DNA from: a virus
DNA: 11,083 bases
Direction: 5' to 3' (one strand)
Virus genome (UHGV): UHGV-1793687
In this document: positions 1 to 11,083 of the stretch, in pieces
Numbering within the stretch: the first letter of the stretch is position 1
How the letters are laid out: the number at the start of each line of letters is the position of its first letter
Translations under genes and position numbers: made by a program
Notes under the pieces: generated by a model
What the model was told of the DNA's origin: nothing
What the model saw: the letters and a program-made list of their open reading frames with translations, nothing else
Database searches by the model: none

Positions 1-111
1 AAGTGATGCCATCACAAAAGCCATTCCCTACAGAGTGGCTTTGATAATGGCTTATACCCTACACGGGATAACTTAACTGATATCCCTTTTAACGGATAAA
101 CGGAGCCAATA

Positions 112-609
112 ATGGCAAAGCTCACAGACAAACAAGAGCTGTTTGCCCATCCGGATGATGTGTATGTCGGAGAGTGTGTGATTTATACCGGCTACATAAA
201 TAAGCGAGGGTATGGGCAGAAGCACATTTCACGAAAGCCGCACTACGCACATCGAATCGCATACTGCGAAGCTAACGGAATTTCGCTAGATAGCATCAAG
301 GACCTGGTTGTTAGGCATAAATGTGATAATCCATCATGCGTGAATCCTGACCATCTGATTATAGGTACTGTCGCTGACAATAATCGTGACAGGTCAAGGC
401 GAGGCAGAAACTCATACCCTGACCGTTCAGGTGAAAAGAACGGAATGGCGAAATTAAAAGAGTGCGATGTCATCTGCATTCGACGTGAATATGTCCGCGG
501 GAGCATTGGTAGGGGGCTTAGATCCTTATCAGAGAAATATGGCGTATCGACGACCATGATTGCTGACATCGTTAATTATAGAAATTGGAGCAACGTTTCG
601 GGGGTGTGA
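112..609 (+). CDS. HNH homing-type endonuclease (HNH_3-like), probably terminase-associated
   Basis: 165-aa ORF with ATG at 112 and GGAG about 8 nt upstream. Translation has an HNH-like core (…VRHKCDNPSCVNPDHLIIGT…NNRDR…) with conserved His/Asn/His spacing, plus a C-terminal basic helix-turn-helix-like segment. Sits directly upstream of the terminase small subunit. Confidence 0.85.
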   Translation: MAKLTDKQELFAHPDDVYVGECVIYTGYINKRGYGQKHISRKPHYAHRIAYCEANGISLDSIKDLVVRHKCDNPSCVNPDHLIIGTVADNNRDRSRRGRNSYPDRSGEKNGMAKLKECDVICIRREYVRGSIGRGLRSLSEKYGVSTTMIADIVNYRNWSNVSGV

Positions 610-610
610 T

Positions 611-1165
611 TTGAAACAGCTCACACCTAAGCAGGAACTGTTCTGCCGGGAATATTTAAAAGATTTAAACGCCACTCAGGCAGCTATCAGGGCGGGTTAC
701 AGCGAGAAAACTGCTCGCGCCACTGGTAGCGAGAACCTGTCAAAACCTGACATAGCAGATCGCATTGCTGAGCTAAAGGCTGAACGCAATGAAGAGGTAG
801 GTATAGACGCTGCCTATGTATTGCGACGGCTGACTGAAATCGATCAGATGGACGTGCTTGACATTCTGCTTGCCAATGGCGAACTGAAGCCCATTAAAGA
901 CTGGCCTAAGGTATGGCGCACAACGCTATCAGGAATGGATGTCGTCGAGATGGCATCAGCAGATAGCGCCGCACTTCTGAAGAAAATCAAATGGCCTGAC
1001 AAGGTTAAAAACCTCGAACTTCTTGGTAAGCATGTTTCTGTTCAGGCGTTTAAAGAGCAAACATCTACAGAAATAACTGGCGCTGATGGAGGACCAGTCA
1101 GAACAGAAATTACCAACTTAACGCCGGAGCAGGCTGCAGAGGCGTATAGAAAAATGATGGGCTAA
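611..1165 (+). CDS. terS: Terminase small subunit (Terminase_2-like)
   Basis: The track ORF begins at TTG 560, but the frame has no ATG until far inside. TTG at 611 sits 1 nt after the HNH stop (607-609) with GGGGTG upstream and gives [31 protein letters not shown]…, a typical small-terminase N-terminus. Stop at 1163-1165 is 2 nt before the large subunit ATG. The start codon is uncertain (560 or 611). Confidence 0.8.
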
Positions 1166-1167
1166 GT

Positions 1168-2790
1168 ATGCCGTTACCATTCCCCTTCGATTTTAAACAT
1201 CCTGATTACCAGATGGTTTTTGAATGGCGGATGGAACGCCTACAGCGCATTCGCCAGAATCCTGAAATATTGCCTGCACTAAAACAGTTTTACCGAACCA
1301 ATCCGGCTCAGTTCATCATCGACTGGGGCATGACAACGGACCCGCGTAATATTGATTATGGCCTGCCGGTGACCATTCCGTTTTTACTCTTCCCTAAGCA
1401 GGAGGAGTGGATCCACTGGATTATGGAACGCTGGAGCAATCGGGAGAATGGTATTACCGAAAAATCCCGTGAAATGGGGCTCAGTTGGACCGCGATCGGA
1501 ATGGCATGCTCGCTTTGTCTCTTCAACAAAGAAATGGTTATCGGTTTCGGCTCCCGTAAAGAGGAATACGTCGACAGCACTGGTGACCCGAAAGCATTGT
1601 TCTGGAAGGCACGCAAGTTCGTGGAAACGCTACCTGTAGAGTTTCGCGGTTCGTGGAGCGAGAAGAAGCACGCGCCATATATGCGTGTTGAGTTTCCCGA
1701 TACTGGTGCCGTTATCAAAGGCGAGGCTGGCGACAATATCGGTCGTGGTGACCGTACCACGCTCTACCTGGTGGATGAGGCTGCATTCCTCCAGCGTCCT
1801 CTGCTGATTGATGCGGCGCTGTCGCAAACCACCCGCTGCCGTATCGACCTGAGTTCGGTTAACGGCATGGCGAACCCGTTCGCGCAGAAGCGTCACGGCG
1901 GGAAGATACCGGTATTCACATTCCACTGGCGGGATGATCCTCGCAAGGATGAAGAGTGGTATCGCAGGGAATGCGAGAAAATCGATAATCCGGTGGTGGT
2001 GGCGCAGGAGCTTGACCTGAACTACAGCGCATCTGCGGAAGGCGTCCTGATCCCGTCCGACTGGGTACAGGCTGCCGTCGACGCGCATATCAAGCTGGGC
2101 ATCCAGCCAACGGGCAAACGCCTGGGCGCGATGGACGTCGCCGACGAAGGCCGGGACAAAAACGCCTTTTCGACCCGTCACGGCTTCTTCCTGGAGAACG
2201 TGCGGGAATGGTCCGGCGTGGGCAGCGACATTTACCAGTCCGTTGAGAAGGTCTTCGGCTTTTGCGAACAGGACAACCTCGAAGAGTTTCGCTTCGACGA
2301 GGACGGTCTGGGCGCTGGCGTTCGCGGCGATGCACGCGCTATCAACGAACTGCGTAACGCTGCGCGCCGACCGTCAATACTCGCCACACCGTTTCGAGGT
2401 AGTGGCGCGGTATTTGATCCGGATGATGAAGCTGTTCGCGGGGACAACGGGCAAGCCGCCCGCCTGAACAAGGACTTCTTCGCTAACGCCAAGGCCCAGA
2501 GCTGGTGGCGTTTACGCAAGCTTTTCCAGAATACTTATCGCGCCGTGGTTGAGGGCATGGCCTACAACCCGGACGAAATCATCTCAATCAGCAGCGCCAT
2601 GGCGAGCAAAGACAAACTCATCATCGAGCTGTCGCAGCCGACCTACTCCATTAACGGCGTGGGGAAAATCGTTGTTGATAAACAGCCTGACGGCACCAAG
2701 TCGCCGAACCTCGCCGACTCGGTGATGATCAGCTACGCGCCAATGAATTCAGCCCTGAACATCTGGGAGCTGCTAGGGAGACAGGCCTGA
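1168..2790 (+). CDS. terL: Terminase large subunit
   Basis: 540-aa ORF immediately after terS. Contains a Walker-B-like hydrophobic run ending in DE ([11 protein letters not shown]) and an acidic C-terminal nuclease-like half. Its TGA stop overlaps the portal ATG (…cTGATGg…). Confidence 0.9.
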
Positions 2791-4259
2791 TGGCACGAAA
2801 CAAGCAAGCCTCTCAGCGAACGGCGCAGGCCACCGCTGATGGCTACGAGAACTTTGTCGCCCGCGTGGGGATGCAGACGCCTAACCAGCATTCAGCATCG
2901 ACCTACCGGGCGAACTTCACCAGCCGCAACCGCATGCTGGTGGAATGGTCCTATCGTTCGTCCTGGATCATCGGCGAAGCGGTCGACGCTATCCCGGATG
3001 ATATGACCCGCAAAGGCATTCGCATTACTTCGGAAATTGATGCAAAAGATCGCGGCATTCTCGAATCACAACTTGATGAGTTGCAGATCTGGGATGCGCT
3101 GAACGACGTGCTGAAATGGTCTCGCCTCTACGGCGGCGCGGTCGGCTTCATCATGATCGAGGGGCAGGCACCAATGACCCCGCTGCGGCTCGAAACCATT
3201 GGAGAAGGCAAGTTTAAGGGCATTCTCCCGCTCGACCGCTGGATGATTAACCCGGTGCTGACCCGCCGCATTAAAGAGATGGGGCCGGATCTCGGCAAAC
3301 CTGAGTTTTACGACGTGGTGACCACTGCAACGGGCATCCCGGCCTGGCGCATCCATCACAGCCGCCTGATTCGCTTCGATGGCGTCACGCTGCCATTCCA
3401 GCAGAAGATGACCGAAAACGAATGGGGAATGTCGGTTGTAGAGCGTATCTGGGATCGGCTTACTGCGTTCGACAGCGCCACTGTCGGCGCGGCTCAGCTG
3501 GTCTACAAAGCGCATCTGCGCACCTACAGCGTGGAGAAGCTGCGCGAGCTTATCGCGCTTGGAGGCCCGGCGTTCGAAGCGCTGCTGAAGAACATCGACC
3601 TGATCCGCCAGTTCCAGAGCAATGAAGGCATGACGCTTATGGACTCGCGGGATAAGTTCGAAACCCACCAGTACAGCTTTAGTGGTCTGGATGACATTCT
3701 TTCGCAGTTTGCTGAGCAGATCAGCGGTGCCGTTGGTATCCCGCTGGTACGCCTGTTCGGTCAATCCCCGAAAGGCTTCTCTACTGGTGATGCAGACCTC
3801 GCCAACTATTACGACCGGGTGAGCTCATTGCAGGAGCGCCGCTTACGGCTGCCGATGCGCCGGATACTGGACATTATGCACCGCTCGGAACTAGGTAAGC
3901 CGCTGCCGGACGATTTCACGTTTGAGTTTAACCCGCTATGGCAAATGTCTGACGTTGACCGCTCAACGGTGGCCGTAAACACCACCACTGCGATCAGCAC
4001 CGCGCTGGCTGATGGATTGATGACGCGTAAGGCGGCAATGACCGACCTGCGCGAAAACTCTGACGTCACTGGTATCGGAGCATCCATTACCGACGAGGAT
4101 ATCGAGAATGCCGAAGACGAAGCGCCGCCAGGCATCGGCGAACTTGGCGACAAACCGCCAGAGTCGCCAGGCGGAGATCCGATATCGAACGAGCCTACGG
4201 CAGATAGCGCGGGCGGTCGGGGATATCGTAAATGGGCGCTACGATGGTTCAAACGATAG
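2790..4259 (+). CDS. Portal protein (DUF1073 / HI1409-like phage portal family)
   Basis: 489-aa ORF whose start overlaps the terL stop by 1 nt. Size and position after terL fit a portal, and the N-terminal sequence resembles DUF1073-type portals as I recall them. The C-terminus is an acidic, Pro/Gly-rich, probably disordered tail. Confidence 0.8.
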   Translation: MARNKQASQRTAQATADGYENFVARVGMQTPNQHSASTYRANFTSRNRMLVEWSYRSSWIIGEAVDAIPDDMTRKGIRITSEIDAKDRGILESQLDELQIWDALNDVLKWSRLYGGAVGFIMIEGQAPMTPLRLETIGEGKFKGILPLDRWMINPVLTRRIKEMGPDLGKPEFYDVVTTATGIPAWRIHHSRLIRFDGVTLPFQQKMTENEWGMSVVERIWDRLTAFDSATVGAAQLVYKAHLRTYSVEKLRELIALGGPAFEALLKNIDLIRQFQSNEGMTLMDSRDKFETHQYSFSGLDDILSQFAEQISGAVGIPLVRLFGQSPKGFSTGDADLANYYDRVSSLQERRLRLPMRRILDIMHRSELGKPLPDDFTFEFNPLWQMSDVDRSTVAVNTTTAISTALADGLMTRKAAMTDLRENSDVTGIGASITDEDIENAEDEAPPGIGELGDKPPESPGGDPISNEPTADSAGGRGYRKWALRWFKR

Positions 4260-4881
4260 CGTCACCGAAATCATGGATGCGCTGGAGCGCTACAGCGAAA
4301 TCATCACCCCCTGGGCGACGAAGGTAGCTGAGAACTTCACCGCAGACATAGCGCGCCAGAATGAAAAGCAGTGGCGTCAACACAGCCGGAACATCAGCGC
4401 AGAGCTGCGCAACATGGTTGACCGCGCCCCGGTAGGCCAGGTGATGAAATCCATCGTCGCCGAGCAAATTAAGTACATCAAATCTCTGCCTCTTGAGGCC
4501 GCCGATCGGGTGTATGACATTCAGAACAAGGCCATCGAGGCTGTAGTAACTGGTGGCCGCGCTGAGCCATTCGCGAAAGAGATAGCTGCTTCCGGTGACG
4601 TGTCACGCTCACGAGCGAACCTTATCGCCCGGACTGAGCTTGGGCGCGCAACCGGTGCACTGGATCAGGCGCGTGCGCTGTCAATCGGCTCGAATGGTTA
4701 TATCTGGCGTACAGCCGAAGATGGCGACGTCCGGCATTCTCATCGAGAGATGGAAGGGAAGTTTGTCGAATGGGGCAAACCTCCAACGCTTGACGGCATG
4801 ACCGGTCACGCTGGCGAGCTCCCGAACTGCCGCTGTTACAAAGAGATCGTCTTCCCCAACCCTCATTCTTATCTCGCCTGA
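4108..4881 (+). CDS. Head morphogenesis protein, Phage_Mu_F / SPP1 gp7-like
   Basis: 257-aa ORF in the +1 frame relative to the portal. The C-terminal region (…ARTELGRATGALDQARALSIGSNGYIWRTAEDGDVRHSHREMEGKFVEW…) matches the Mu-F minor head protein motif. ATG 4108 has GAGGAT about 8 nt upstream but overlaps the portal 3' end by 152 nt; an alternative in-frame ATG at 4273 has a weak RBS. Confidence 0.75.
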   Translation: MPKTKRRQASANLATNRQSRQAEIRYRTSLRQIARAVGDIVNGRYDGSNDSVTEIMDALERYSEIITPWATKVAENFTADIARQNEKQWRQHSRNISAELRNMVDRAPVGQVMKSIVAEQIKYIKSLPLEAADRVYDIQNKAIEAVVTGGRAEPFAKEIAASGDVSRSRANLIARTELGRATGALDQARALSIGSNGYIWRTAEDGDVRHSHREMEGKFVEWGKPPTLDGMTGHAGELPNCRCYKEIVFPNPHSYLA

Positions 4882-4895
4882 ATCGCAGGTAAACC

Positions 4896-6116
4896 ATGAA
4901 ATATTTTTTCAATACCCGACTGGGGGAAACCCGCTATCAGCTTGCTGACGGCTCGTTGCTGTGCAGAGACGTGCCGATAGGACGAACAGGTAAGCAGCTC
5001 TATGGTGCTGATGACCTGCCAAAACTGAAACCCGACAAGCTCGGTGAGATAGTCGTCACGCGCTCTCCTGAGCAGGTATTCCATCCCGCCACACTTGCCT
5101 CATTCGAAGGAATGAGTATCACGGTGTTGCATCCCGAGGATGAAAACGGGGATGTGCGGCTGGTGAATCCAGAGAACTGGAAAGAGCTTGCTGTCGGGCA
5201 TCTTCAGAATGTGCGGCGCGGGACTGGTGACCAGTCTGATTTGATGCTGGCTGACCTTATCGTCAAAGACGAAAACGCTATTCAGCTTATCGAAGATGGC
5301 CTGCGTGAAGTGTCGTGCGGCTATGACGCGGAGTACGAGCAGACCGAGCCCGGAAAAGCCGAGCAGGTCGATATTACCGGAAACCATGTGGCTCTTGTCC
5401 CTAAAGGCAGAGCCGGAAATCGTTGTGCAATTGGAGACAGAGACACAATGGCAAATCAAAAGAAAAGCTGGTGGACCCGCATGCGCACGGCCATCAAAAC
5501 GGGTGACGCTGACACCATGAACGAACTGCTGGACTCTGCGCCAGCGGCGGTAACGGGTGATGAAGGGGATCTGCCGAGCGGCGTTAACCTCAACATTAAC
5601 CTTTCACCGCAGCAACCATTGCCGGACAAAAAGCCGGAAATGGGCGGAGAGCCAACCGGCGACGGCGAGGACGATATCAAAACCTTGCTCAAAGCCCTGC
5701 TGGCTAAGCTGGAAGGAAATGCGACGGGCGATAACGACAATAAGCCTGACGATAATCCGACCGGTGACGGCGAGGACGATGAAGAGGAAACCACGATTAC
5801 TGGTGACTCAGCCTGGCGTGCCGAGGTTATCGTCCCAGGTATCGATCTGAGCCGTAAGGTGAAACCGACCGCGTTCAAACGTGATGTGCTGGCTTCCGCT
5901 GACAAAACGCTGGTTCGCCAGATAGTCGGCGATGCGGATATCCGCAAATTGCCGAAACAATCGGTCAACATGGCGTTTAATGCCGTGTCAGAGATTGCCA
6001 AAGGGCGAAACACCCGCAGCACCACGGGCGATGCACAACGTCCAAATATGGGCATGACCAGCATCGCTTCCCTGAACAAACAAAACGCCGACTTCTGGTC
6101 TAACCGCAAAGGATAA
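4896..6116 (+). CDS. Putative capsid scaffold / maturation protease-like protein (DUF2213-like) with acidic repetitive C-terminal region
   Basis: 406-aa ORF with ATG 4896 and AGGT upstream. The N-terminal ~190 aa is globular; the C-terminal half is low-complexity and acidic, with repeated TGD and PTGDGEDD motifs. It sits between the Mu-F-like gene and the capsid gene, where a scaffold or protease is expected. Confidence 0.7.
   Translation: MKYFFNTRLGETRYQLADGSLLCRDVPIGRTGKQLYGADDLPKLKPDKLGEIVVTRSPEQVFHPATLASFEGMSITVLHPEDENGDVRLVNPENWKELAVGHLQNVRRGTGDQSDLMLADLIVKDENAIQLIEDGLREVSCGYDAEYEQTEPGKAEQVDITGNHVALVPKGRAGNRCAIGDRDTMANQKKSWWTRMRTAIKTGDADTMNELLDSAPAAVTGDEGDLPSGVNLNINLSPQQPLPDKKPEMGGEPTGDGEDDIKTLLKALLAKLEGNATGDNDNKPDDNPTGDGEDDEEETTITGDSAWRAEVIVPGIDLSRKVKPTAFKRDVLASADKTLVRQIVGDADIRKLPKQSVNMAFNAVSEIAKGRNTRSTTGDAQRPNMGMTSIASLNKQNADFWSNRKG
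5652..5780 (+). repeat. Imperfect direct repeat inside the scaffold-like CDS (two ~24-nt copies encoding PTGDGEDD)
   Basis: ccaaccggcgacggcgaggacgat at 5652-5675 and ccgaccggtgacggcgaggacgat at 5757-5780 match at 22 of 24 positions and are 105 nt apart, in frame. Confidence 0.6.
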
Positions 6117-6120
6117 TCCA

Positions 6121-6624
6121 ATGACTGCATATCTGTACCGGATGCCTGTTGGCATTGCCGGGGCTATCTCTCGCCCGCAGGACTTAACCGTCGAACCGGT
6201 GGTCCTTAAATCCGATAACGCCTTTGCTGCCTATGGGCTGGCTGGTAAATACGATGATGACGGTTTTTTCGTGCCGCTGGAGGACGGTGACACCGCCGAC
6301 AAGGTGAAGGGGATCTACGTTCGTCCGTATCCGACCACATCGCAGCCAGACATGGTTCGCCAGGTGGGGACGGATAAGAATTTCCCGGGCGACGCCATGA
6401 AACGTGGCTACATGACCGTTAACCTTGGATCTGGCTTCGATGCCAGCACCATCAAAAAAGGTGATCCTGTCTACGTGGTCGTTTCGCTCGATTCAACCAT
6501 TGACGTGCCGCTGGGCGGCTTCATGTCCACGTCCGTCAGTGGCAAAAACGTGGCGCTGACCAACGCCGAATTCACAGGGGCCGGTGACGCTAACGGCAAT
6601 GCAGAAATCTCCTGGAAGATTTAA
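6121..6624 (+). CDS. Hypothetical phage structural protein (position suggests head decoration or accessory capsid protein)
   Basis: 167-aa ORF with ATG 6121 and AAAGGA 7 nt upstream. It is tightly coupled between the scaffold-like gene and the major capsid gene. I do not recognise a family from the sequence. Confidence 0.65.
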   Translation: MTAYLYRMPVGIAGAISRPQDLTVEPVVLKSDNAFAAYGLAGKYDDDGFFVPLEDGDTADKVKGIYVRPYPTTSQPDMVRQVGTDKNFPGDAMKRGYMTVNLGSGFDASTIKKGDPVYVVVSLDSTIDVPLGGFMSTSVSGKNVALTNAEFTGAGDANGNAEISWKI

Positions 6625-6635
6625 GGAACAGACGA

Positions 6636-7577
6636 ATGATTACTTTTGATCAGGCAACCGTTGATAGCTCTGGTGCCTTTCTCATCGGGGAGCTGGAGCG
6701 ACTCGACCAGACGCTGAACCTGCCGCTGGTGGGTTACACCTGGACCCGCGATATTCAGTTGCGTGAAGACGTTTCTATCGCAGATGACATTTCCAGCTGG
6801 ACTAACACCAGCTTTGGCGCTGCGGGTACTGGCGCAAATCCGAACGGTAAAAACTGGGTAGGCAAAGACTCAACCGCTATTGCTGGCGTGAACGTGGATA
6901 TCGGCAAATCCGGTAACCCGCTGAACCTGTGGGGGATGGAACTTGGCTGGACCGTTGTAGAGCTGGCAGCAGCTCAGCAGGTAGGTCGCCCGATTGACAC
7001 CCAGAAGTACGACGGGATGCAGCTCAAATGGCAGATGGACAACGACGAGCAGGTGTATGTTGGCGATTCCGCATTAAACCTGAAAGGCCTTGTTACCCTG
7101 AACGGTGTTCCTGTCAACAACGCTGCCAAAACGTGGGCAACCTCAACACCGGACGAAATCCGCGCAAGCATTAACCAGGTGCTGTCTGATGCGTGGGCCG
7201 CTTCTGGTTACTCTGTGGTTCCGCGTGATTTGCTGATCCCGCCAGAGCAGTTTGCTCTGTTGTCCAGCATCATCGTTTCATCTGCGGGTAACCAGTCCCT
7301 GTTGACGTACCTTCAGACTAACACCATCAGCTATCACCAGAACGGTGTTCCGCTGAATATCCGCGCGGTTAAATGGCTGAAAGGCCGTGGTGTGGGGAAT
7401 AAGGATCGCATGGTTGCGTACACCAACGATAAAAAATACGTCCGCTATCCGCTGGTGCCGTTGCAGAGCGTTCCTATCCAGTATCGCGGTCTGTACCAGA
7501 TTGCGACCTACTACGGCAAGCTCGGTGCGGTTGAGCCAGTGTACAAAGAAACCCTGTCCTACGTGGACGGTATCTGA
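6636..7577 (+). CDS. Major capsid protein (DUF2184-like, HK97-fold predicted)
   Basis: 313-aa ORF with ATG 6636 and AAGGA overlapping the upstream stop. Size, position after the scaffold-like gene, and a strong hairpin immediately downstream fit a highly expressed capsid gene. The family call is from memory of DUF2184-type capsid proteins. Confidence 0.7.
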   Translation: MITFDQATVDSSGAFLIGELERLDQTLNLPLVGYTWTRDIQLREDVSIADDISSWTNTSFGAAGTGANPNGKNWVGKDSTAIAGVNVDIGKSGNPLNLWGMELGWTVVELAAAQQVGRPIDTQKYDGMQLKWQMDNDEQVYVGDSALNLKGLVTLNGVPVNNAAKTWATSTPDEIRASINQVLSDAWAASGYSVVPRDLLIPPEQFALLSSIIVSSAGNQSLLTYLQTNTISYHQNGVPLNIRAVKWLKGRGVGNKDRMVAYTNDKKYVRYPLVPLQSVPIQYRGLYQIATYYGKLGAVEPVYKETLSYVDGI

Positions 7578-7587
7578 TAACCAGAAC

Positions 7588-7603
7588 GGCCCCGAAAGGG
7601 GCC
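7588..7603 (+). terminator. GC-rich stem-loop (GGCCCC-GAAA-GGGGCC) 3' of the capsid gene; likely mRNA-stabilising or partial terminator hairpin
   Basis: Perfect 6-bp G/C stem with a GNRA (GAAA) tetraloop, 11 nt after the capsid stop. No U-tract follows; an AAGGA RBS and the next ATG (7619) come directly after. Confidence 0.4.
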
Positions 7604-7618
7604 AGAAGGAAACTGAAA

Positions 7619-7903
7619 ATGGCAAAAGAAAAGCTGGTTACCATCCATGTTCACACCCCGTTTACGCTGACGCTCGGCGATCAGTCAAAACAGGAGTTTG
7701 GCCGGGGACGGCATAACGTGCCGGAAGAGGTCGCGTCTCACTGGTTCACCCAGGCGCACTCTGAGCTTTCCGAAAGCGTGATTAGCGACACCAATGATCT
7801 GCAACCCGTTATCGACAGCCTGCAAGCGCAGATTGCTGCCGCCCAGACTGGCGGTAATGGGGCGAAAGATGCCAAAGAATCAAAGTCTGCCAGCGGTAAG
7901 TGA
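7619..7903 (+). CDS. Hypothetical small phage protein (94 aa)
   Basis: ATG 7619 with AAGGAA about 8 nt upstream, directly after the hairpin. The C-terminus is low-complexity and Lys/Ala-rich (…[25 protein letters not shown]). No family recognised. Confidence 0.55.
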
Positions 7904-8276
7904 TTTTCGCCGCGACTTCCCGCAGTTTGCTGACCCTGCCAAATATCCCGAAGCGCAAATCCAGTTTCGTCTGAATCTGGCCGATGTGCTGCTGAGCGAA
8001 AACGTCACCGGCAAAGAGTTGTTTCCGTATTTTGCCGAGTTGTTCGTGGCTCACTACATGACGCTATGGGCGGCAGATAGCCGGGCAATGCTGGTTGGCG
8101 GCCCGGGCGGTTCAACCAATGGTGTTCAATCCTCCAAGTCCGTTGACAAGGTAAGCGTCAGCTATGACACCAGCGCGACGCTAAACCCTGACGCAGGCTT
8201 CTGGAATAACACCCGATATGGCGCTGAATTTTATCAGCTGATCACGATGTTCGGTGCGGGCGGTCGCCAGCTATGA
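7869..8276 (+). CDS. Hypothetical phage protein, DUF4054-like (putative head–tail connector component)
   Basis: The track ORF runs 7794-8276. In-frame ATGs at 7857 and 7869 both overlap the 3' end of the previous ORF. The …[55 protein letters not shown]… region resembles DUF4054 proteins found next to capsid genes. Start is uncertain. Confidence 0.6.
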
Positions 8277-8860
8277 GTTCCAAAAGCGGTGTAACAACGA
8301 GGGTGGATAACGCTAAGGCCATTCTGGATGCACTCAGGTCGCTAACCAAAAAGGATGTGCTGGTCGGCATTCCTGAAGAAGACAGCGAGCGTGAGGATGT
8401 TCCGTTTGGTAATGCCGGGATCGGCTATGTCAACGAATACGGCTCACCAGCGCAAAACATCCCCCCACGCCCGCACCTGATCCCCGGCGTTAAATCGGTA
8501 GAAGAACAGACAGTGCCGCAGCTCAAAGCAGCGGCGCAGGCTGCGCTTGATGGTAATGCGGCGGGTGCGGAAAGAGCGCTCAACCGCGCCGGAACGCTGG
8601 CCGCTAATGGCGTCAGGCGTTACATGACTATTACCGGCTTTACACCGCTTGCTGATAGCACCGTTGAAGCCCGCGCACGTCGAGGGCGCAAAGGGGCGAA
8701 AGCTGAGTTAGCACGCAGATCGGCAGACGGAAAGCTTAATGCTATCAACCCAGATTCTGGTCAATTGATAAGCAATGAGAATGTAAGGCCGTTGATTGAT
8801 ACCGGACAGTACCGCAGAGCCATTACCCATGTTGTGAGGGATAAAGATGCCGACTCTTGA
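8273..8860 (+). CDS. Hypothetical phage protein (possible HK97 gp10-like head-tail joining / neck protein)
   Basis: 195-aa ORF with ATGA start/stop overlap with the upstream gene. The C-terminal …[16 protein letters not shown]… is reminiscent of the gp10-family DTGxLRxSI motif. Function is inferred mainly from position. Confidence 0.6.
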
Positions 8861-9236
8861 TGTAACAGACGTGCTTTTCGACCCCGATTTTTGCGACTTC
8901 AACCTGTGGGTAACGCGTCGCTCGCAAACGGTTGACGATGACGGGATCGGCAGTGACAGCGAAGTTAAAACGCAGTTTGCCGGGGTTGTTACTGTTGACC
9001 GCTCCCTGGAAAACCGCCGCATGCAGGCCGGGCAGGTTATCAGCGGCGCGATTCTTATCGTGACAACTGAGCGGCTGACGCAGGGGCAGACTGGCCGTGA
9101 TGCCGATATCGTGACGTATCAGAACCGTGATTATCGCGTGACATTCGTCGACCCGTATACGGCTTACGGTGCTGGCTTCGTCCAGGCTCATTGTGAATTA
9201 CTGCCGTTTGATGGGGGAACGCCCATTGAGCAATAA
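8847..9236 (+). CDS. Hypothetical phage protein (neck / tail-completion candidate)
   Basis: 129-aa ORF with ATG 8847, GAGGG upstream, and a 14-nt overlap with the upstream gene. No family recognised. Confidence 0.6.
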   Translation: MPTLDVTDVLFDPDFCDFNLWVTRRSQTVDDDGIGSDSEVKTQFAGVVTVDRSLENRRMQAGQVISGAILIVTTERLTQGQTGRDADIVTYQNRDYRVTFVDPYTAYGAGFVQAHCELLPFDGGTPIEQ

Positions 9237-9774
9237 CACCAGCACAGAGCGCGGCTGGCTGACACCCACCAGCGGCGATCCGGATTATGACGAATCGCTC
9301 GACAGGCTGTTAAGCCAGTGGATGCGCAACGTTTCCGGCTTGCCGGCTGGGATGGTTCGCCCGCGCTGGCAGAAAGACCAACCGCCATTGCTACCCATTG
9401 AAACGAACTGGTGCGCGTTTGGCGTTACCGGGTTGCTCATTGATAACAACCCTGCATTCACCGGGCAGACTGAAGAGGGCGCTCAGCTCTGGAGGCATGA
9501 AACGTTCGAGTGCATGGCGTCGTTCTATGGTCCGGCTGGTATGTCTTATGCGTCCCGTTTTCGCGATGGTATATCTGTCCCGCAAAACAATGCTGAGCTG
9601 AACGCGCTTGGTTTATCCCTTGGCGACTATACCGCTCTGACCCCTTTCCCCGAACTTATCAACCAGCAATGGGTTCGCCGTTACGACATGACGGTGCGAC
9701 TGCGCCGGAAGGTTGTCCGCGAGTATGGCATCAAATCGCTGGTGGAAGTGCCAGTCACCTTTTTTGGAGAATAA
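9211..9774 (+). CDS. Hypothetical phage protein (neck / tail-terminator candidate)
   Basis: The track ORF starts at 9169. ATG 9211 and TTG 9226 both overlap or abut the upstream stop at 9234-9236. It ends 3 nt before the sheath gene. No family recognised. Confidence 0.6.
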   Translation: MGERPLSNNTSTERGWLTPTSGDPDYDESLDRLLSQWMRNVSGLPAGMVRPRWQKDQPPLLPIETNWCAFGVTGLLIDNNPAFTGQTEEGAQLWRHETFECMASFYGPAGMSYASRFRDGISVPQNNAELNALGLSLGDYTALTPFPELINQQWVRRYDMTVRLRRKVVREYGIKSLVEVPVTFFGE

Positions 9775-9777
9775 ACT

Positions 9778-10938
9778 ATGACGCAGGGCTTACCTGTATC
9801 CAACGTTGTAAACGTTGATGTGATCATCTCGCCGAAAGCGGCTACTGGTCGTAACTTCGGCGCATTGCTAATCCTTGGCTCTTCCACTGTCATTCCGGTG
9901 ACAGAACGCATTCGCCTTTATGCGTCCGTTGAGGACATTGGCGAGGACTTCGGAGTCGACAGCCCGGAATATGAAGCGGCGCAGGTTTTCTTCAGCCAGT
10001 CGCCGAAGCCGACGCAGGTTTATGTTGGCCGCTGGGCGAAGACGCTGACCTCTTCCGAAGGTGGAAGCGTGGAAACCATCGTGCAAGCTGTTAATGCCTG
10101 CCTGCAATATACCAACTGGTATGGGCTGGTTGTCGCTGATGATGTTGCTGATGGCGGCGATGTGCTTGATGCTGATGACGTGATTGAGGTTGCTAAACTC
10201 ATCGAAGCGTCCAGCCTGAGCCGCATTTTCGGGGTAACATCTGCCGACGCCGATATTATCAGCACGACTTCGACGACCGATGTTGCGTCGAAATTAAAGG
10301 CTGGCAAGTATTCCCGTACCTTTGTTCAGTATTCCACCAGCAGCCCTTATGCGGCTGTTTCAGCTTTCGGTCGCGCGTTTACTGTCAATTTCAACGGCAG
10401 CAATACAACCATTACCCTGAAATTCAAACAGGAACCGAGCGTAACCTACGAAACGCTGACGGTAGGACAGGCGGCGGCTGTGGATGCGAAGAATGCGAAC
10501 GTGTTCGTGTACTACGCCAACGACACGGCGATCCTGCAACAGGGCGTCATGGCGAACGGTGACTTCTTCGACGAGCGCCACGGGCTCGACTGGTTGCAGA
10601 ACTACGTTCAGACCAATCTCTATAACCTGCTTTACACCAGCACCACCAAAATTCCGCAGACTGACGCCGGTGTGACCCGTCTGCTTTCCAACGTTGAACA
10701 GTCCATGGATCAGTCCGTCACGAACGGTCTGGTAGCGGCTGGCGTGTGGAATGGTGGCCCTATCGGACAGCTGAATTCCGGCGATACGCTGACCAAAGGC
10801 TATTACGTCTATGCACAGCCGCTGGTGCAACAGGCGCAGGCCGAACGCGAAGCGCGCAAAGCACCGTTAATTCAGGTGGCCTGTAAGCTGGCTGGCGCAG
10901 TTCATTATGCCGATGTGCAGATCAACGTGGTTCGCTAA
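9778..10938 (+). CDS. Tail sheath protein (DUF3383-like)
   Basis: 386-aa ORF with GGAGA upstream, immediately followed by a gene whose N-terminus matches the DUF3277 tail-tube family. The sheath-then-tube order is the canonical contractile-tail arrangement. The family call is from memory. Confidence 0.7.
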
Positions 10939-10948
10939 GGAGCGATAA

Positions 10949-11083
10949 ATGGCAACTTATTCTTTTCTCGATGTAACCGCGTCGCTCACCGGGCCGACCG
11001 GCGTTATCGATCTTGGTCAGGGTTCTGCCAACTCTGAGGAAGGTATCACCCAGACCATGGGCGGCAACAAGAACACCATGACC
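10949..11083 (+). CDS. Tail tube protein (DUF3277-like), 5' partial; continues beyond the window
   Basis: ATG 10949 with AAGGAG 7-8 nt upstream. N-terminus MATYSFLDVTASLTGPTGVIDLGQGSANSEEGITQTMGGNKNTMT matches the conserved start of DUF3277 tube proteins as I remember them. The ORF is still open at the window end. Confidence 0.7.
   Translation, partial: MATYSFLDVTASLTGPTGVIDLGQGSANSEEGITQTMGGNKNTMT

What the first reader, a model, noticed from the sequence alone, without database searches (positions are those of the whole stretch)
2790..11083. Poorly characterised DUF-type head plus contractile-tail structural cassette
The set DUF1073 portal, Mu-F, DUF2213, DUF2184 capsid, DUF4054, DUF3383 sheath and DUF3277 tube forms a recurring structural module whose components are mostly named only as domains of unknown function. 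Here it is intact and colinear with a terminase, so this is probably a functional myovirus-like prophage rather than a tailocin or a remnant.
Basis: partly seen in the sequence, partly recalled or inferred. Interest (0 to 1): 0.45.

Follow-up and report, generated by a model that had tools for sequence, protein, structure and literature searches.

The report
Ordinary SEN34-like temperate myovirus structural genes
This is the packaging, head, neck and first tail genes of a common, already sequenced type of temperate contractile-tailed phage of E. coli and its relatives; the genes look intact, but the window is a whole short metagenome contig, so whether the phage is complete or integrated cannot be seen.

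Summary
Most of those families now carry functional names.

The cassette is known. It is 94% identical to Citrobacter phage Omnitron and 87% to Salmonella phage SEN34, an inducible myovirus confirmed by electron microscopy. It is 97% identical to a complete 42-kb lambdoid prophage in E. coli I3. 394 of 5426 complete E. coli genomes match it.

Cryo-EM atlases of Pam3, E217, Pa193 and XM1 assign roles to nearly every protein, so "poorly characterised" is out of date.

All complete genes are full length with dN/dS of 0.02-0.4. That argues against decay, and the head genes exclude a tailocin.

The window is an entire 11,083-bp metagenome contig at 3.6x coverage. It ends 45 codons into the tube gene. 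It has no tape measure, baseplate, lysis genes, integrase or att sites. "Intact" and "prophage" therefore rest on relatives.

Side findings:
- The MuF gene probably starts at 4108, overlapping the portal gene by 152 nt.
- The HNH gene upstream of TerS is optional in this family.
- A conserved hairpin follows the capsid gene.

Interest is low.

The parts
2..76 (+). 3' end (24 codons plus stop) of a DUF2560-family late gene, like Sf6 gene 67, that runs off the left contig end
   Evidence: Window 1-117 is 97-99% identical to HK544, Sf6, mEpX1 and others. RefSeq annotates the region there as a DUF2560 family protein. The frame-2 translation ends at 74-76.
112..609 (+). Free-standing HNH endonuclease (165 aa). 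Optional in this phage family.
   Evidence: PF13392 HNH_3, E = 1.6e-9. PHROG 59, E = 8e-34. Absent upstream of the near-identical (about 93% nt) TerS in E. coli YZ22PE106. No counterpart was found in the SEN34, Omnitron, yong1 or 689R2 loci.
611..1165 (+). Terminase small subunit (184 aa, TTG start)
   Evidence: PF03592 Terminase_2, E = 1e-40. PHROG 51, E = 6e-54. Start as called.
1168..2790 (+). Terminase large subunit (540 aa), related to P22/Sf6 TerL
   Evidence: No Pfam or NCBIfam hit. PHROG 2, E = 1e-32. PDB sequence hits to Sf6 gp2 (4idh, E = 8e-28) and the P22 gp2 nuclease domain (5c12, E = 1e-26). KSREMGLS at residue 99, LYLVDEAAF at residue 199 and AMDVAD at residue 321.
2790..4259 (+). 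Portal protein (489 aa; old DUF1073)
   Evidence: PF06381, E = 3e-105. PHROG 146, E = 2e-174. PDB hits to the Pam3 portal (8hds, E = 7e-35) and to the E217 and Pa193 gp19 portals.
4108..4881 (+). Mu-F/SPP1 gp7-like minor head (head morphogenesis) protein. Probable 257-aa form that overlaps the portal gene by 152 nt. Gene callers start it at 4273 (202 aa).
   Evidence: PF04233, E = 5e-18. PHROG 324 scores 303.9 bits from 4108 against 284.4 bits from 4273. The upstream frame and its ATG are conserved in the four relatives examined, and 689R2 lacks the 4273 ATG. The wobble pattern in the overlap follows the MuF frame.
4896..6116 (+). DUF2213 / Pa193_gp24-family protein (406 aa): conserved N-domain, acidic TGD-rich linker, helical C-terminal part. 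Putative scaffold, possibly with a protease domain.
   Evidence: PF09979, E = 5e-42. PHROG 1961, E = 7e-197, and PHROGs annotated as head maturation protease. Pa193 gp24 was assigned as a putative scaffolding protein. Residues 201-300 hold 26 D/E against 7 K/R.
6121..6624 (+). Capsid cement/decoration protein (167 aa)
   Evidence: PF23982 XM1_gp53_minor_capsid, E = 1e-30. PF22758 Phage_cement (E217 gp24 / Pam3 gp6), E = 5e-22.
6636..7577 (+). Major capsid protein (313 aa; old DUF2184)
   Evidence: PF09950, E = 5e-86. PHROG 264, E = 2e-97. PDB hit to the Pam3 major capsid (8hdt, E = 2.5e-18).
7587..7604 (+). GC-rich hairpin GGCCCC-GAAA-GGGGCC, 10 nt after the capsid stop, with no T-run
   Evidence: The 56-nt stretch 7570-7625 that contains it folds at -18.2 kcal/mol, z = -3.1. 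The stem is kept in relatives with a different loop.
7619..7903 (+). Small STY1053-family protein (94 aa), a variable allele
   Evidence: NF047914, E = 4e-22. PHROG 2619. The otherwise closest relatives have a 73-aa allele. It is 95% aa identical to Omnitron but 63% to E. coli I3.
7869..8276 (+). Head-to-tail adaptor (135 aa; DUF4054 / E217_gp27)
   Evidence: PF13262, E = 4e-27. E217 gp27 is the dodecameric head-to-tail adaptor.
8273..8860 (+). Neck1-like / tail-completion-like protein (195 aa). Role least certain.
   Evidence: PHROG 222, E = 2e-48. No Pfam, NCBIfam or PDB sequence match. AF2 model pLDDT 60 with no fold match. Its position corresponds to Pam3 gp10.
8847..9236 (+). Connector/collar-like neck protein (129 aa)
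   Evidence: PHROG 939, E = 1e-43. PGAP names it 'head-tail adaptor' in E. coli I3. Its size and position match Pam3 gp11 and E217 gp28. This is an inference.
9226..9774 (+). Neck/tail terminator, 'gateway' (182 aa from TTG 9226; Prodigal calls GTG 9193)
   Evidence: PF23961 Phage_tail_terminator_9, E = 3e-35. PHROG 1973 matches from residue 22 of the 9169 ORF. Weak PDB hit to the Pam3 terminator. PGAP start in I3.
9778..10938 (+). Contractile tail sheath (386 aa; DUF3383 / E217_gp31_N)
   Evidence: PF11863, E = 7e-102. PHROG 205, E = 6e-128. PDB hits to the XM1 sheath (7kh1, E = 4e-35) and, end to end, to the Pam3 sheath (8hdr, E = 6e-27).
10949..11083 (+). Tail tube protein, first 45 codons only; cut by the contig end (old DUF3277)
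   Evidence: PF11681 KPP10_Orf10, E = 2e-12, on profile positions 1-45 of 144. Homologues are 441 nt long.

Best explanation
The window is a fragment of the late operon of a SEN34-like temperate myovirus of Enterobacteriaceae. This phage type joins a Pam3/E217-type structural module to a lambdoid-type late and regulatory backbone.

Inferred order of action:
1. TerS recognises the phage DNA. The P22/Sf6-related TerL then cuts it and pumps it through the dodecameric portal, probably by headful packaging.
2. The procapsid is built from the PF09950 major capsid protein around the DUF2213 scaffold-like protein, with the Mu-F protein as a portal-associated minor head protein.
3. After expansion, trimers of the cement protein lock the capsomer junctions.
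4. The DUF4054 adaptor (12-mer), a connector (6-mer) and the terminator close the head and dock a separately assembled tail. That tail is a DUF3383 sheath around a DUF3277 tube, and sheath contraction drives the tube through the envelope.

Shown here: family assignments, gene order, intactness, purifying selection and near-identity to isolated phages and to a complete prophage.

Inferred: stoichiometries, T = 7 capsid geometry, the packaging mode, and that the rest of the phage exists beyond the contig ends.
For: - Family assignments come from Pfam, PHROGs and NCBIfam.
- There are sequence matches to solved virion components. These are the Pam3 portal, capsid and sheath, weakly the Pam3 terminator, the E217/Pa193 portal, the XM1 sheath and Sf6/P22 TerL.
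- The gene order is colinear with Pam3 gp3-gp14 and with the E217 assignments.
- The window is 94% nt identical to Citrobacter phage Omnitron, about 90% to four vB_EcoM phages, 87% to SEN34 and 81% to Hafnia phage yong1.
- SEN34 is mitomycin-inducible, encodes an integrase and has a contractile tail by EM.
- The window is 97% identical to a 42-kb prophage in E. coli I3. That prophage has int, N, cI-like repressor, cII, Q, holin, endolysin, tape measure, baseplate, fibre and gtrABC genes between sbcB and dacD.
- All 14 complete genes are full length, with omega of 0.02-0.4 against five relatives.
- The left end carries a 97-99% identical piece of the lambdoid/P22-like late region.
- No internal promoter or terminator excess was found, which fits one long late transcript.
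Against: - The contig has no flanks. Integrase, att sites, lysis genes, tape measure, baseplate and fibres are unseen.
- Coverage is 3.6x, so single-base assembly errors are possible.
- The same cassette also occurs with a non-lambdoid early region in vB_EcoM-689R2, which has a DNA polymerase, a helicase and a TIR-like gene. The backbone here is therefore not certain.
- Degraded copies of this family exist in E. coli.
- The roles of the 195-aa neck gene and of DUF2213 rest on family annotation and position only. Structure prediction failed for both.
Confidence: 0.88

Rival explanations
1. The contig comes from a defective prophage remnant. The part seen is still intact, but essential tail, lysis or regulatory genes beyond the contig ends are deleted or disrupted, so no infectious particle is made.
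For: Remnants of this family exist. E. coli INSC1002 has int, xis, TerS, TerL and a portal pseudogene cut after about 750 nt, joined to a tail fibre assembly gene. Some E. coli matches cover only small parts of the cassette. The contig ends inside a gene.
Against: No pseudogene, frameshift or truncation occurs in 11 kb, and omega is far below 1 in every gene. 333 of the 394 E. coli genomes with a match hold at least 80% of the cassette. A contig end at 3.6x coverage is most simply an assembly break.
Confidence: 0.08
2. The DNA is from a free or replicating phage genome, or from a relative with a different non-lambdoid backbone such as vB_EcoM-689R2, rather than from an integrated prophage.
For: The same structural cassette is joined to a DNA-polymerase and helicase early region in 689R2. 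Circular 42-45 kb 'non-mobilizable plasmid' records from Salmonella, and a 41.7-kb one from Shigella, carry the cassette and look like circular phage genomes. Nothing in the window is bacterial.
Against: The left end is 97-99% identical to the late region of lambdoid and P22-like phages. The best match overall is an integrated lambdoid prophage. This rival changes only the physical state or the backbone, not what the cassette is.
Confidence: 0.3
3. The cassette encodes a tailocin or other headless contractile injection system.
For: The sheath and tube families are distantly related to those of contractile injection systems (discussion; notes similarity of sheath domains to R2 pyocin).
Against: TerS, TerL, portal, scaffold-like protein, cement, major capsid and head-to-tail adaptor genes are all present and conserved. 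Tailocins lack these.
Confidence: 0.01

Closest known systems
Salmonella phage SEN34 (genus Brunovirus) and unclassified relatives: Citrobacter phage Omnitron, Escherichia phages vB_EcoM-689R2, -611R5, -683R1 and -606R2, and Hafnia phage yong1
   Same: The structural genes and their order are the same from TerL to the tube. Nucleotide identity is 81-94%. Amino-acid identity is 66-100% for the genes from TerL to the tube, apart from the variable STY1053 gene. SEN34 is temperate, mitomycin-inducible and a myovirus by EM, with lambda-like regulation genes.
   Different: TerS is a different allele. No counterpart was found in SEN34, Omnitron or yong1, and it is 65% aa identical to 689R2. The HNH gene was not found in any of them. 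The sheath is only 66% identical to SEN34. Genus membership needs whole-genome identity, which an 11-kb contig cannot give.
Prophage of E. coli strain I3 (NZ_CP195969.1, between sbcB and dacD) and similar prophages in about 6-7% of complete E. coli genomes
   Same: It is 97% nt identical over window 33-11083, with identical HNH and TerS proteins. It shows what the complete element looks like: about 42 kb with integrase, lambdoid immunity, replication and Q genes, lysis genes, the full tail and gtrABC.
   Different: The STY1053 gene is a different allele (73 aa against 94 aa; 63% identity). A Rha-family gene, not the DUF2560 gene, lies upstream of the HNH gene.
Cyanophage Pam3, the 'minimal myophage' (cryo-EM, PDB 8hdr/8hds/8hdt)
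   Same: The gene order is colinear: portal, two genes, cement, capsid, small gene, adaptor, one gene, connector, terminator, sheath, tube. There are direct sequence matches for the portal, capsid and sheath, and a weak one for the terminator. The sheath is of the same short length, 386 aa against 384 aa.
   Different: The relationship is distant (E = 1e-18 to 1e-35). Pam3 infects a cyanobacterium and has a 54.5-kb genome. The baseplate and fibres cannot be compared.
Pseudomonas Pbunaviruses E217 and Pa193, and Vibrio phage XM1 (cryo-EM atlases)
   Same: They share the Pfam families now named after them: E217_gp27 adaptor, E217_gp31_N sheath, Phage_cement (E217 gp24), Pa193_gp24 (DUF2213) and XM1_gp53.
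   Different: They are virulent phages with larger genomes. E217 has a T = 9 capsid and a 504-residue sheath with an extra domain, where the protein here has 386 aa.

Membership tests
Pam3/E217/XM1-type myovirus structural module | PF06381 portal, PF04233 Mu-F, PF09979, PF22758/PF23982 cement, PF09950 capsid, PF13262 adaptor, PF23961 terminator, PF11863 sheath and PF11681 tube, each above the gathering score | tested here: met
   All nine families are above their curated cut-offs. The tube is matched only on profile positions 1-45.
Pam3/E217/XM1-type myovirus structural module | Gene order colinear with structurally assigned virion components | tested here: met
   The order matches Pam3 gp3-gp14 and E217 gp19-gp32 as described.
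Pam3/E217/XM1-type myovirus structural module | Tape measure, baseplate hub and wedge, and tail fibre genes downstream of the tube | not testable with these tools
   The contig ends at 11083 inside the tube gene. These genes are present in relatives.
SEN34-like temperate phages (genus Brunovirus) | Whole-genome nucleotide similarity at genus level. The ICTV convention of about 70% over the full genome is from my own knowledge. | not testable with these tools
   Only 11 kb is available. Identity to SEN34 is 87% over 76% of the window.
SEN34-like temperate phages (genus Brunovirus) | Integrase and lambda-like regulatory region | not testable with these tools
   Neither is in the window. The only trace is a 97-99% identical lambdoid/P22-like late-region fragment at 1-117. 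Both are present in SEN34 and in E. coli I3.
Defective prophage remnant | Truncated or frameshifted genes, or relaxed selection | tested here: not met
   All 14 complete genes align end to end with phage orthologues, with omega of 0.02-0.4. Compare the true remnant. This holds only within the contig.
R-type tailocin / headless contractile injection system | Absence of terminase, portal and capsid genes | tested here: not met
   TerS, TerL, portal, capsid, cement and adaptor genes are all present.
P22/Sf6-type headful (pac) terminase | TerL sequence relationship to Sf6 gp2 / P22 gp2 | tested here: met
   4idh, E = 8e-28, over residues 249-522. 5c12, E = 1e-26.
P22/Sf6-type headful (pac) terminase | pac site, terminal redundancy and circular permutation | not tested
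   This needs virion DNA ends or read-start analysis. The SEN34 authors could not identify packaging sequences.
HK97-type HNH-assisted cos packaging | An HNH gene conserved next to the terminase genes across the family | tested here: not met
   The HNH gene is missing upstream of the near-identical TerS in E. coli YZ22PE106, and no counterpart was found in the four phage relatives. It belongs to the HNH_3 homing-endonuclease-type family.

The most novel reading that the evidence does not exclude
The portal gene and the Mu-F gene share a conserved 152-nt dual-coding overlap (4108-4259). Gene callers, both Prodigal and PGAP, consistently miss it and annotate a Mu-F protein shortened by 55 residues across this phage family. 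If real, the overlap could couple Mu-F translation to the end of portal translation and so help set the ratio of the two portal-vertex proteins.
Probability: 0.65. Interest if true: 0.2.

Novelty: already known. Interest (0 to 1): 0.1.

Why it matters
It matters little as a discovery. The cassette is already in GenBank phages and in hundreds of E. coli genomes, and cryo-EM work on distant relatives has assigned roles to nearly all of its proteins.

It has three practical uses:
- The old DUF names can be mapped onto current functional names for this very common enterobacterial prophage type.
- The Mu-F start codon probably needs correcting throughout the family.
- An 11-kb contig cannot support claims about prophage completeness.

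Tried and rejected
- **AlphaFold2, 195-aa neck protein (8273-8860).** With a 24-sequence alignment the model reached only pLDDT 60. Foldseek against the PDB found nothing at E <= 0.001. Its role therefore stays at PHROG and position level.
- **AlphaFold2, DUF2213 protein.** With 16 homologues the model failed (pLDDT 41; N-domain 20-40). No fold search was run on it. A profile of the same alignment found no solved structure, so the protease idea is untested.
- **PDB sequence searches.** The 195-aa and 129-aa neck proteins gave nothing meaningful.
- **NCBIfam.** It named only four proteins.
- **RNA and signal scans.** Rfam and tRNA scans were empty. The promoter and terminator scan was below the shuffled expectation.
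- **N-terminal 55 aa of long Mu-F alone.** It gave no PHROG hit. Support for the long form rests on the score gain, conservation and codon-position pattern.
- **Flank look-up.** Searches by exact protein showed that the window is the whole contig.
- **Literature.** Searches for vB_EcoM-689R2 and Hafnia phage yong1 found no usable papers.
- **HNH as part of the packaging machine.** Considered and rejected, because it is optional in the family.
- **PGAP label 'anti-CBASS protein Acb1 family' on a portal fragment.** Rejected as a functional lead, because the protein matches solved portals only.


Full report
**What is in the window**

The window carries one uninterrupted set of + strand genes. 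Looking up two of its proteins by exact sequence showed what the window is. It is an entire metagenome contig, ENA ERZ773198 NODE_2151, 11,083 bp at 3.6x coverage. No flanks exist, and the right end cuts the last gene after 45 codons.

**Check of the observation**

| Coordinates | Protein | Pfam | E-value |
|---|---|---|---|
| 2790-4259 | portal (old DUF1073) | PF06381 | 3e-105 |
| ORF 4108-4881 | Mu-F | PF04233 | 5e-18 |
| 4896-6116 | DUF2213 | PF09979 | 5e-42 |
| 6636-7577 | major capsid (old DUF2184) | PF09950 | 5e-86 |
| 7869-8276 | DUF4054 | PF13262 | 4e-27 |
| 9778-10938 | sheath (DUF3383) | PF11863 | 7e-102 |
| 10949-11083 | tube (old DUF3277), first 45 codons | PF11681 | 2e-12 |

PHROGs agrees throughout. 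TerS (611-1165, PF03592) and TerL (1168-2790) are directly upstream. TerL has no Pfam or NCBIfam hit. It matches PHROG 2 and the solved Sf6 gp2 and P22 gp2 terminases, and it has recognisable ATPase-like motifs.

- a cement protein, 6121-6624
- a small STY1053-family gene, 7619-7903
- three further neck genes: 8273-8860, 8847-9236, and the PF23961 terminator at 9226-9774
- an HNH endonuclease gene, 112-609

**How well characterised the module is**

The precomputed Pfam labels attached to this contig already read Pa193_gp24, E217_gp27 and E217_gp31_N. The local Pfam copy names the others Phage_portal_3, Major_capside, Phage_cement, XM1_gp53_minor_capsid, Phage_tail_terminator_9 and KPP10_Orf10.

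Three cryo-EM papers give the roles:
- **E217.** The portal is gp19 and gp24 is a trimeric beta-tulip cement. Gp25 is the capsid protein and gp27 a dodecameric head-to-tail adaptor. Gp28 is the collar and gp29 the gateway. Gp31 is the sheath and gp32 the tube.
- **Pam3.** The order is gp3 portal, gp6 cement, gp7 capsid, gp9 adaptor, gp11 connector, gp12 terminator, gp13 sheath and gp14 tube. That order is colinear with this window.
- **Pa193.** Its DUF2213-family protein gp24 is assigned as a putative scaffolding protein, part of which stays under the capsid five-fold vertices.

Sequence searches of the PDB link four of the window's proteins directly to Pam3. These are the portal (E = 7e-35), the capsid (E = 2.5e-18), the sheath (E = 6e-27, end to end) and, weakly, the terminator. 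Others link to E217, Pa193 and XM1. "Poorly characterised" was fair some years ago and is no longer.

**Which phage type it belongs to**

Nucleotide identity to isolated phages:
- 94% to Citrobacter phage Omnitron
- about 90% to four vB_EcoM phages
- 87% to Salmonella phage SEN34 (genus Brunovirus)
- 81% to Hafnia phage yong1

SEN34 was induced with mitomycin C and forms plaques. It encodes an integrase and has lambda-like regulation genes. By electron microscopy it has an icosahedral head and a long contractile tail.

In complete E. coli genomes, the cassette 2790-11083 matches 394 of 5426 genomes. 333 of these hold at least 80% of it, always on the chromosome.

The best match is E. coli I3, at 97% identity. 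It is a complete element of about 42 kb between sbcB and dacD. It carries:
- an integrase
- N, a cI-like repressor, cII, replication genes, nin genes and Q
- holin, endolysin and Rz1
- the same HNH and TerS
- the whole cassette
- tail chaperones, tape measure, baseplate and fibre genes
- gtrABC

These are listed. Homologues of the DUF2213 and neck proteins are found in these genera:
- Salmonella
- Citrobacter
- Enterobacter
- Klebsiella
- Hafnia
- Serratia
- Yersinia
- Erwinia
- Pantoea
- Edwardsiella
- Cronobacter

**Intactness**

I aligned each window gene to its counterpart in E. coli I3, a second gut contig, SEN34, 689R2, Omnitron and yong1. Every complete gene aligns over its full length. 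dN/dS is 0.02-0.4 wherever dS is measurable. There are no frameshifts or internal stops.

A real remnant of this family looks different. E. coli INSC1002 keeps int, xis, TerS and TerL. Its portal is a pseudogene cut after about 750 nt and joined to a tail fibre assembly gene.

The part that can be seen is therefore intact and under selection, and the head genes exclude a tailocin. The window cannot show whether the tail, lysis and lysogeny modules follow. It also cannot show whether the DNA was integrated. The only hint of the backbone is at the left end. Bases 1-117 are 97-99% identical to the region of HK544, Sf6 and many other lambdoid and P22-like phages that holds the end of a DUF2560 gene (Sf6 gene 67).

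The cassette can also sit on another backbone. vB_EcoM-689R2 joins it to an early region with a DNA polymerase, a helicase and a TIR-like gene.

**Mechanism**

The steps given under the best explanation follow from the family assignments and the published structures. Inferred and not tested here:
- headful packaging, from the TerL relationship alone
- a T = 7 capsid with cement trimers, by analogy with Pam3 and the 40-43 kb genomes of relatives
- the roles of the 195-aa and 129-aa neck proteins
- whether the conserved N-domain of the DUF2213 protein is a protease, as some PHROG annotations say, in addition to a scaffold

Structure prediction failed for the two proteins where it would have helped.

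**Side findings**

1. **The Mu-F gene probably starts at 4108, not at 4273.**
   - The upstream frame is open and has a conserved ATG in the four relatives examined.
   - 689R2 has ATT where the others have the 4273 ATG.
   - The long form gains about 20 bits against PHROG 324 and reaches 59 profile positions further.
   - Within 4108-4259 the third positions of the portal frame are invariant in 40 of 51 columns, against 10 of 53 just upstream. The most variable positions are the third positions of the Mu-F frame.
2. **The HNH gene is optional.** A near-identical TerS is preceded by other small genes in E. coli YZ22PE106.
3. **TerS is exchanged independently of TerL**.
4. **The small gene after the capsid gene is a swapped allele**.
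5. **A GC-rich hairpin follows the capsid stop codon.** Its stem is kept in relatives with another loop.

**Verdict**

This is a correct observation of an ordinary, already known phage structural module. It overreaches on "intact", "prophage" and "poorly characterised".

Noticed in passing
window 4108-4273: The Mu-F gene appears to start at ATG 4108 and to overlap the 3' end of the portal gene by 152 nt in another frame. Prodigal and PGAP both start it at 4273. The extension is conserved in all relatives examined. In 689R2 the 4273 ATG is ATT, and the annotators there chose an even later start.
   Followed up: yes
window 112-609: An HNH_3-type endonuclease gene sits between the lambdoid late region and TerS. 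It is 100% aa identical in E. coli I3. It is absent upstream of the near-identical TerS in E. coli YZ22PE106 (L008), and no counterpart was found in the SEN34, Omnitron, yong1 or 689R2 loci. It looks like a mobile, homing-type insertion rather than a packaging component.
   Followed up: partly
window 1-117: The left contig end is 97-99% identical to HK544, Sf6, mEpX1, IME10 and more than 100 other lambdoid and P22-like phages. It holds the last 24 codons of a DUF2560-family gene (Sf6 gene 67) plus the spacer after it. A sharp mosaic joint lies at about 117.
   Followed up: partly
window 7587-7604: A GC-rich hairpin, GGCCCC-GAAA-GGGGCC, lies 10 nt after the major capsid stop codon and has no T-run. 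The 56-nt stretch that contains it folds at -18.2 kcal/mol (z = -3.1). Relatives keep the stem with a different loop. It may be an mRNA stabiliser or a partial terminator that raises capsid expression.
   Followed up: partly
window 7619-7903: The STY1053-family small gene is a swapped allele. It is 94 aa here, 95% identical to Omnitron and 86% to SEN34. It is only 63% identical to the 73-aa version in E. coli I3 and in the gut contig L003, although the flanking genes there are 98-100% identical to the window's.
   Followed up: partly
window 611-1186: TerS is exchanged independently of TerL. TerL is at least 95% aa identical in all five relatives. TerS is identical only in E. coli I3 and 65% identical in 689R2, and no counterpart was found in SEN34, Omnitron or yong1. 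G+C is 45-48% in 1-1500 and 53-62% afterwards.
   Followed up: partly
L005 (vB_EcoM-689R2) 1-15000: The same structural cassette is attached to a non-lambdoid early region. That region has a family-A-like DNA polymerase, a helicase, a TIR-like domain protein, a repressor and Q. The structural module therefore moves between backbones.
   Followed up: no
L009 (E. coli INSC1002) 322-7665: A degraded prophage of this family lies between ybhC and ybhB. The portal is a pseudogene cut after about 750 nt, and PGAP labels it 'anti-CBASS protein Acb1 family protein'. The intact window protein matches only solved portal proteins, so the label looks like a naming artefact.
   Followed up: partly
plasmid records OX345036.1, OX345446.1, NZ_CP012733.1: Circular, 'non-mobilizable plasmid' records of 42-45 kb from Salmonella, and one of 41.7 kb from Shigella, carry 56-82% of the cassette at 86-90% identity. 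They are probably circular phage genomes deposited as plasmids.
   Followed up: no
proteins P0002, P0004, P0012: Some DUF2213 homologues have a tandem duplication of about 43 aa in the acidic TGD-rich linker (P0002, 449 aa). Two 576-aa entries fuse DUF2213 with the downstream cement protein. The fusions are probably read-through or sequencing errors.
   Followed up: no
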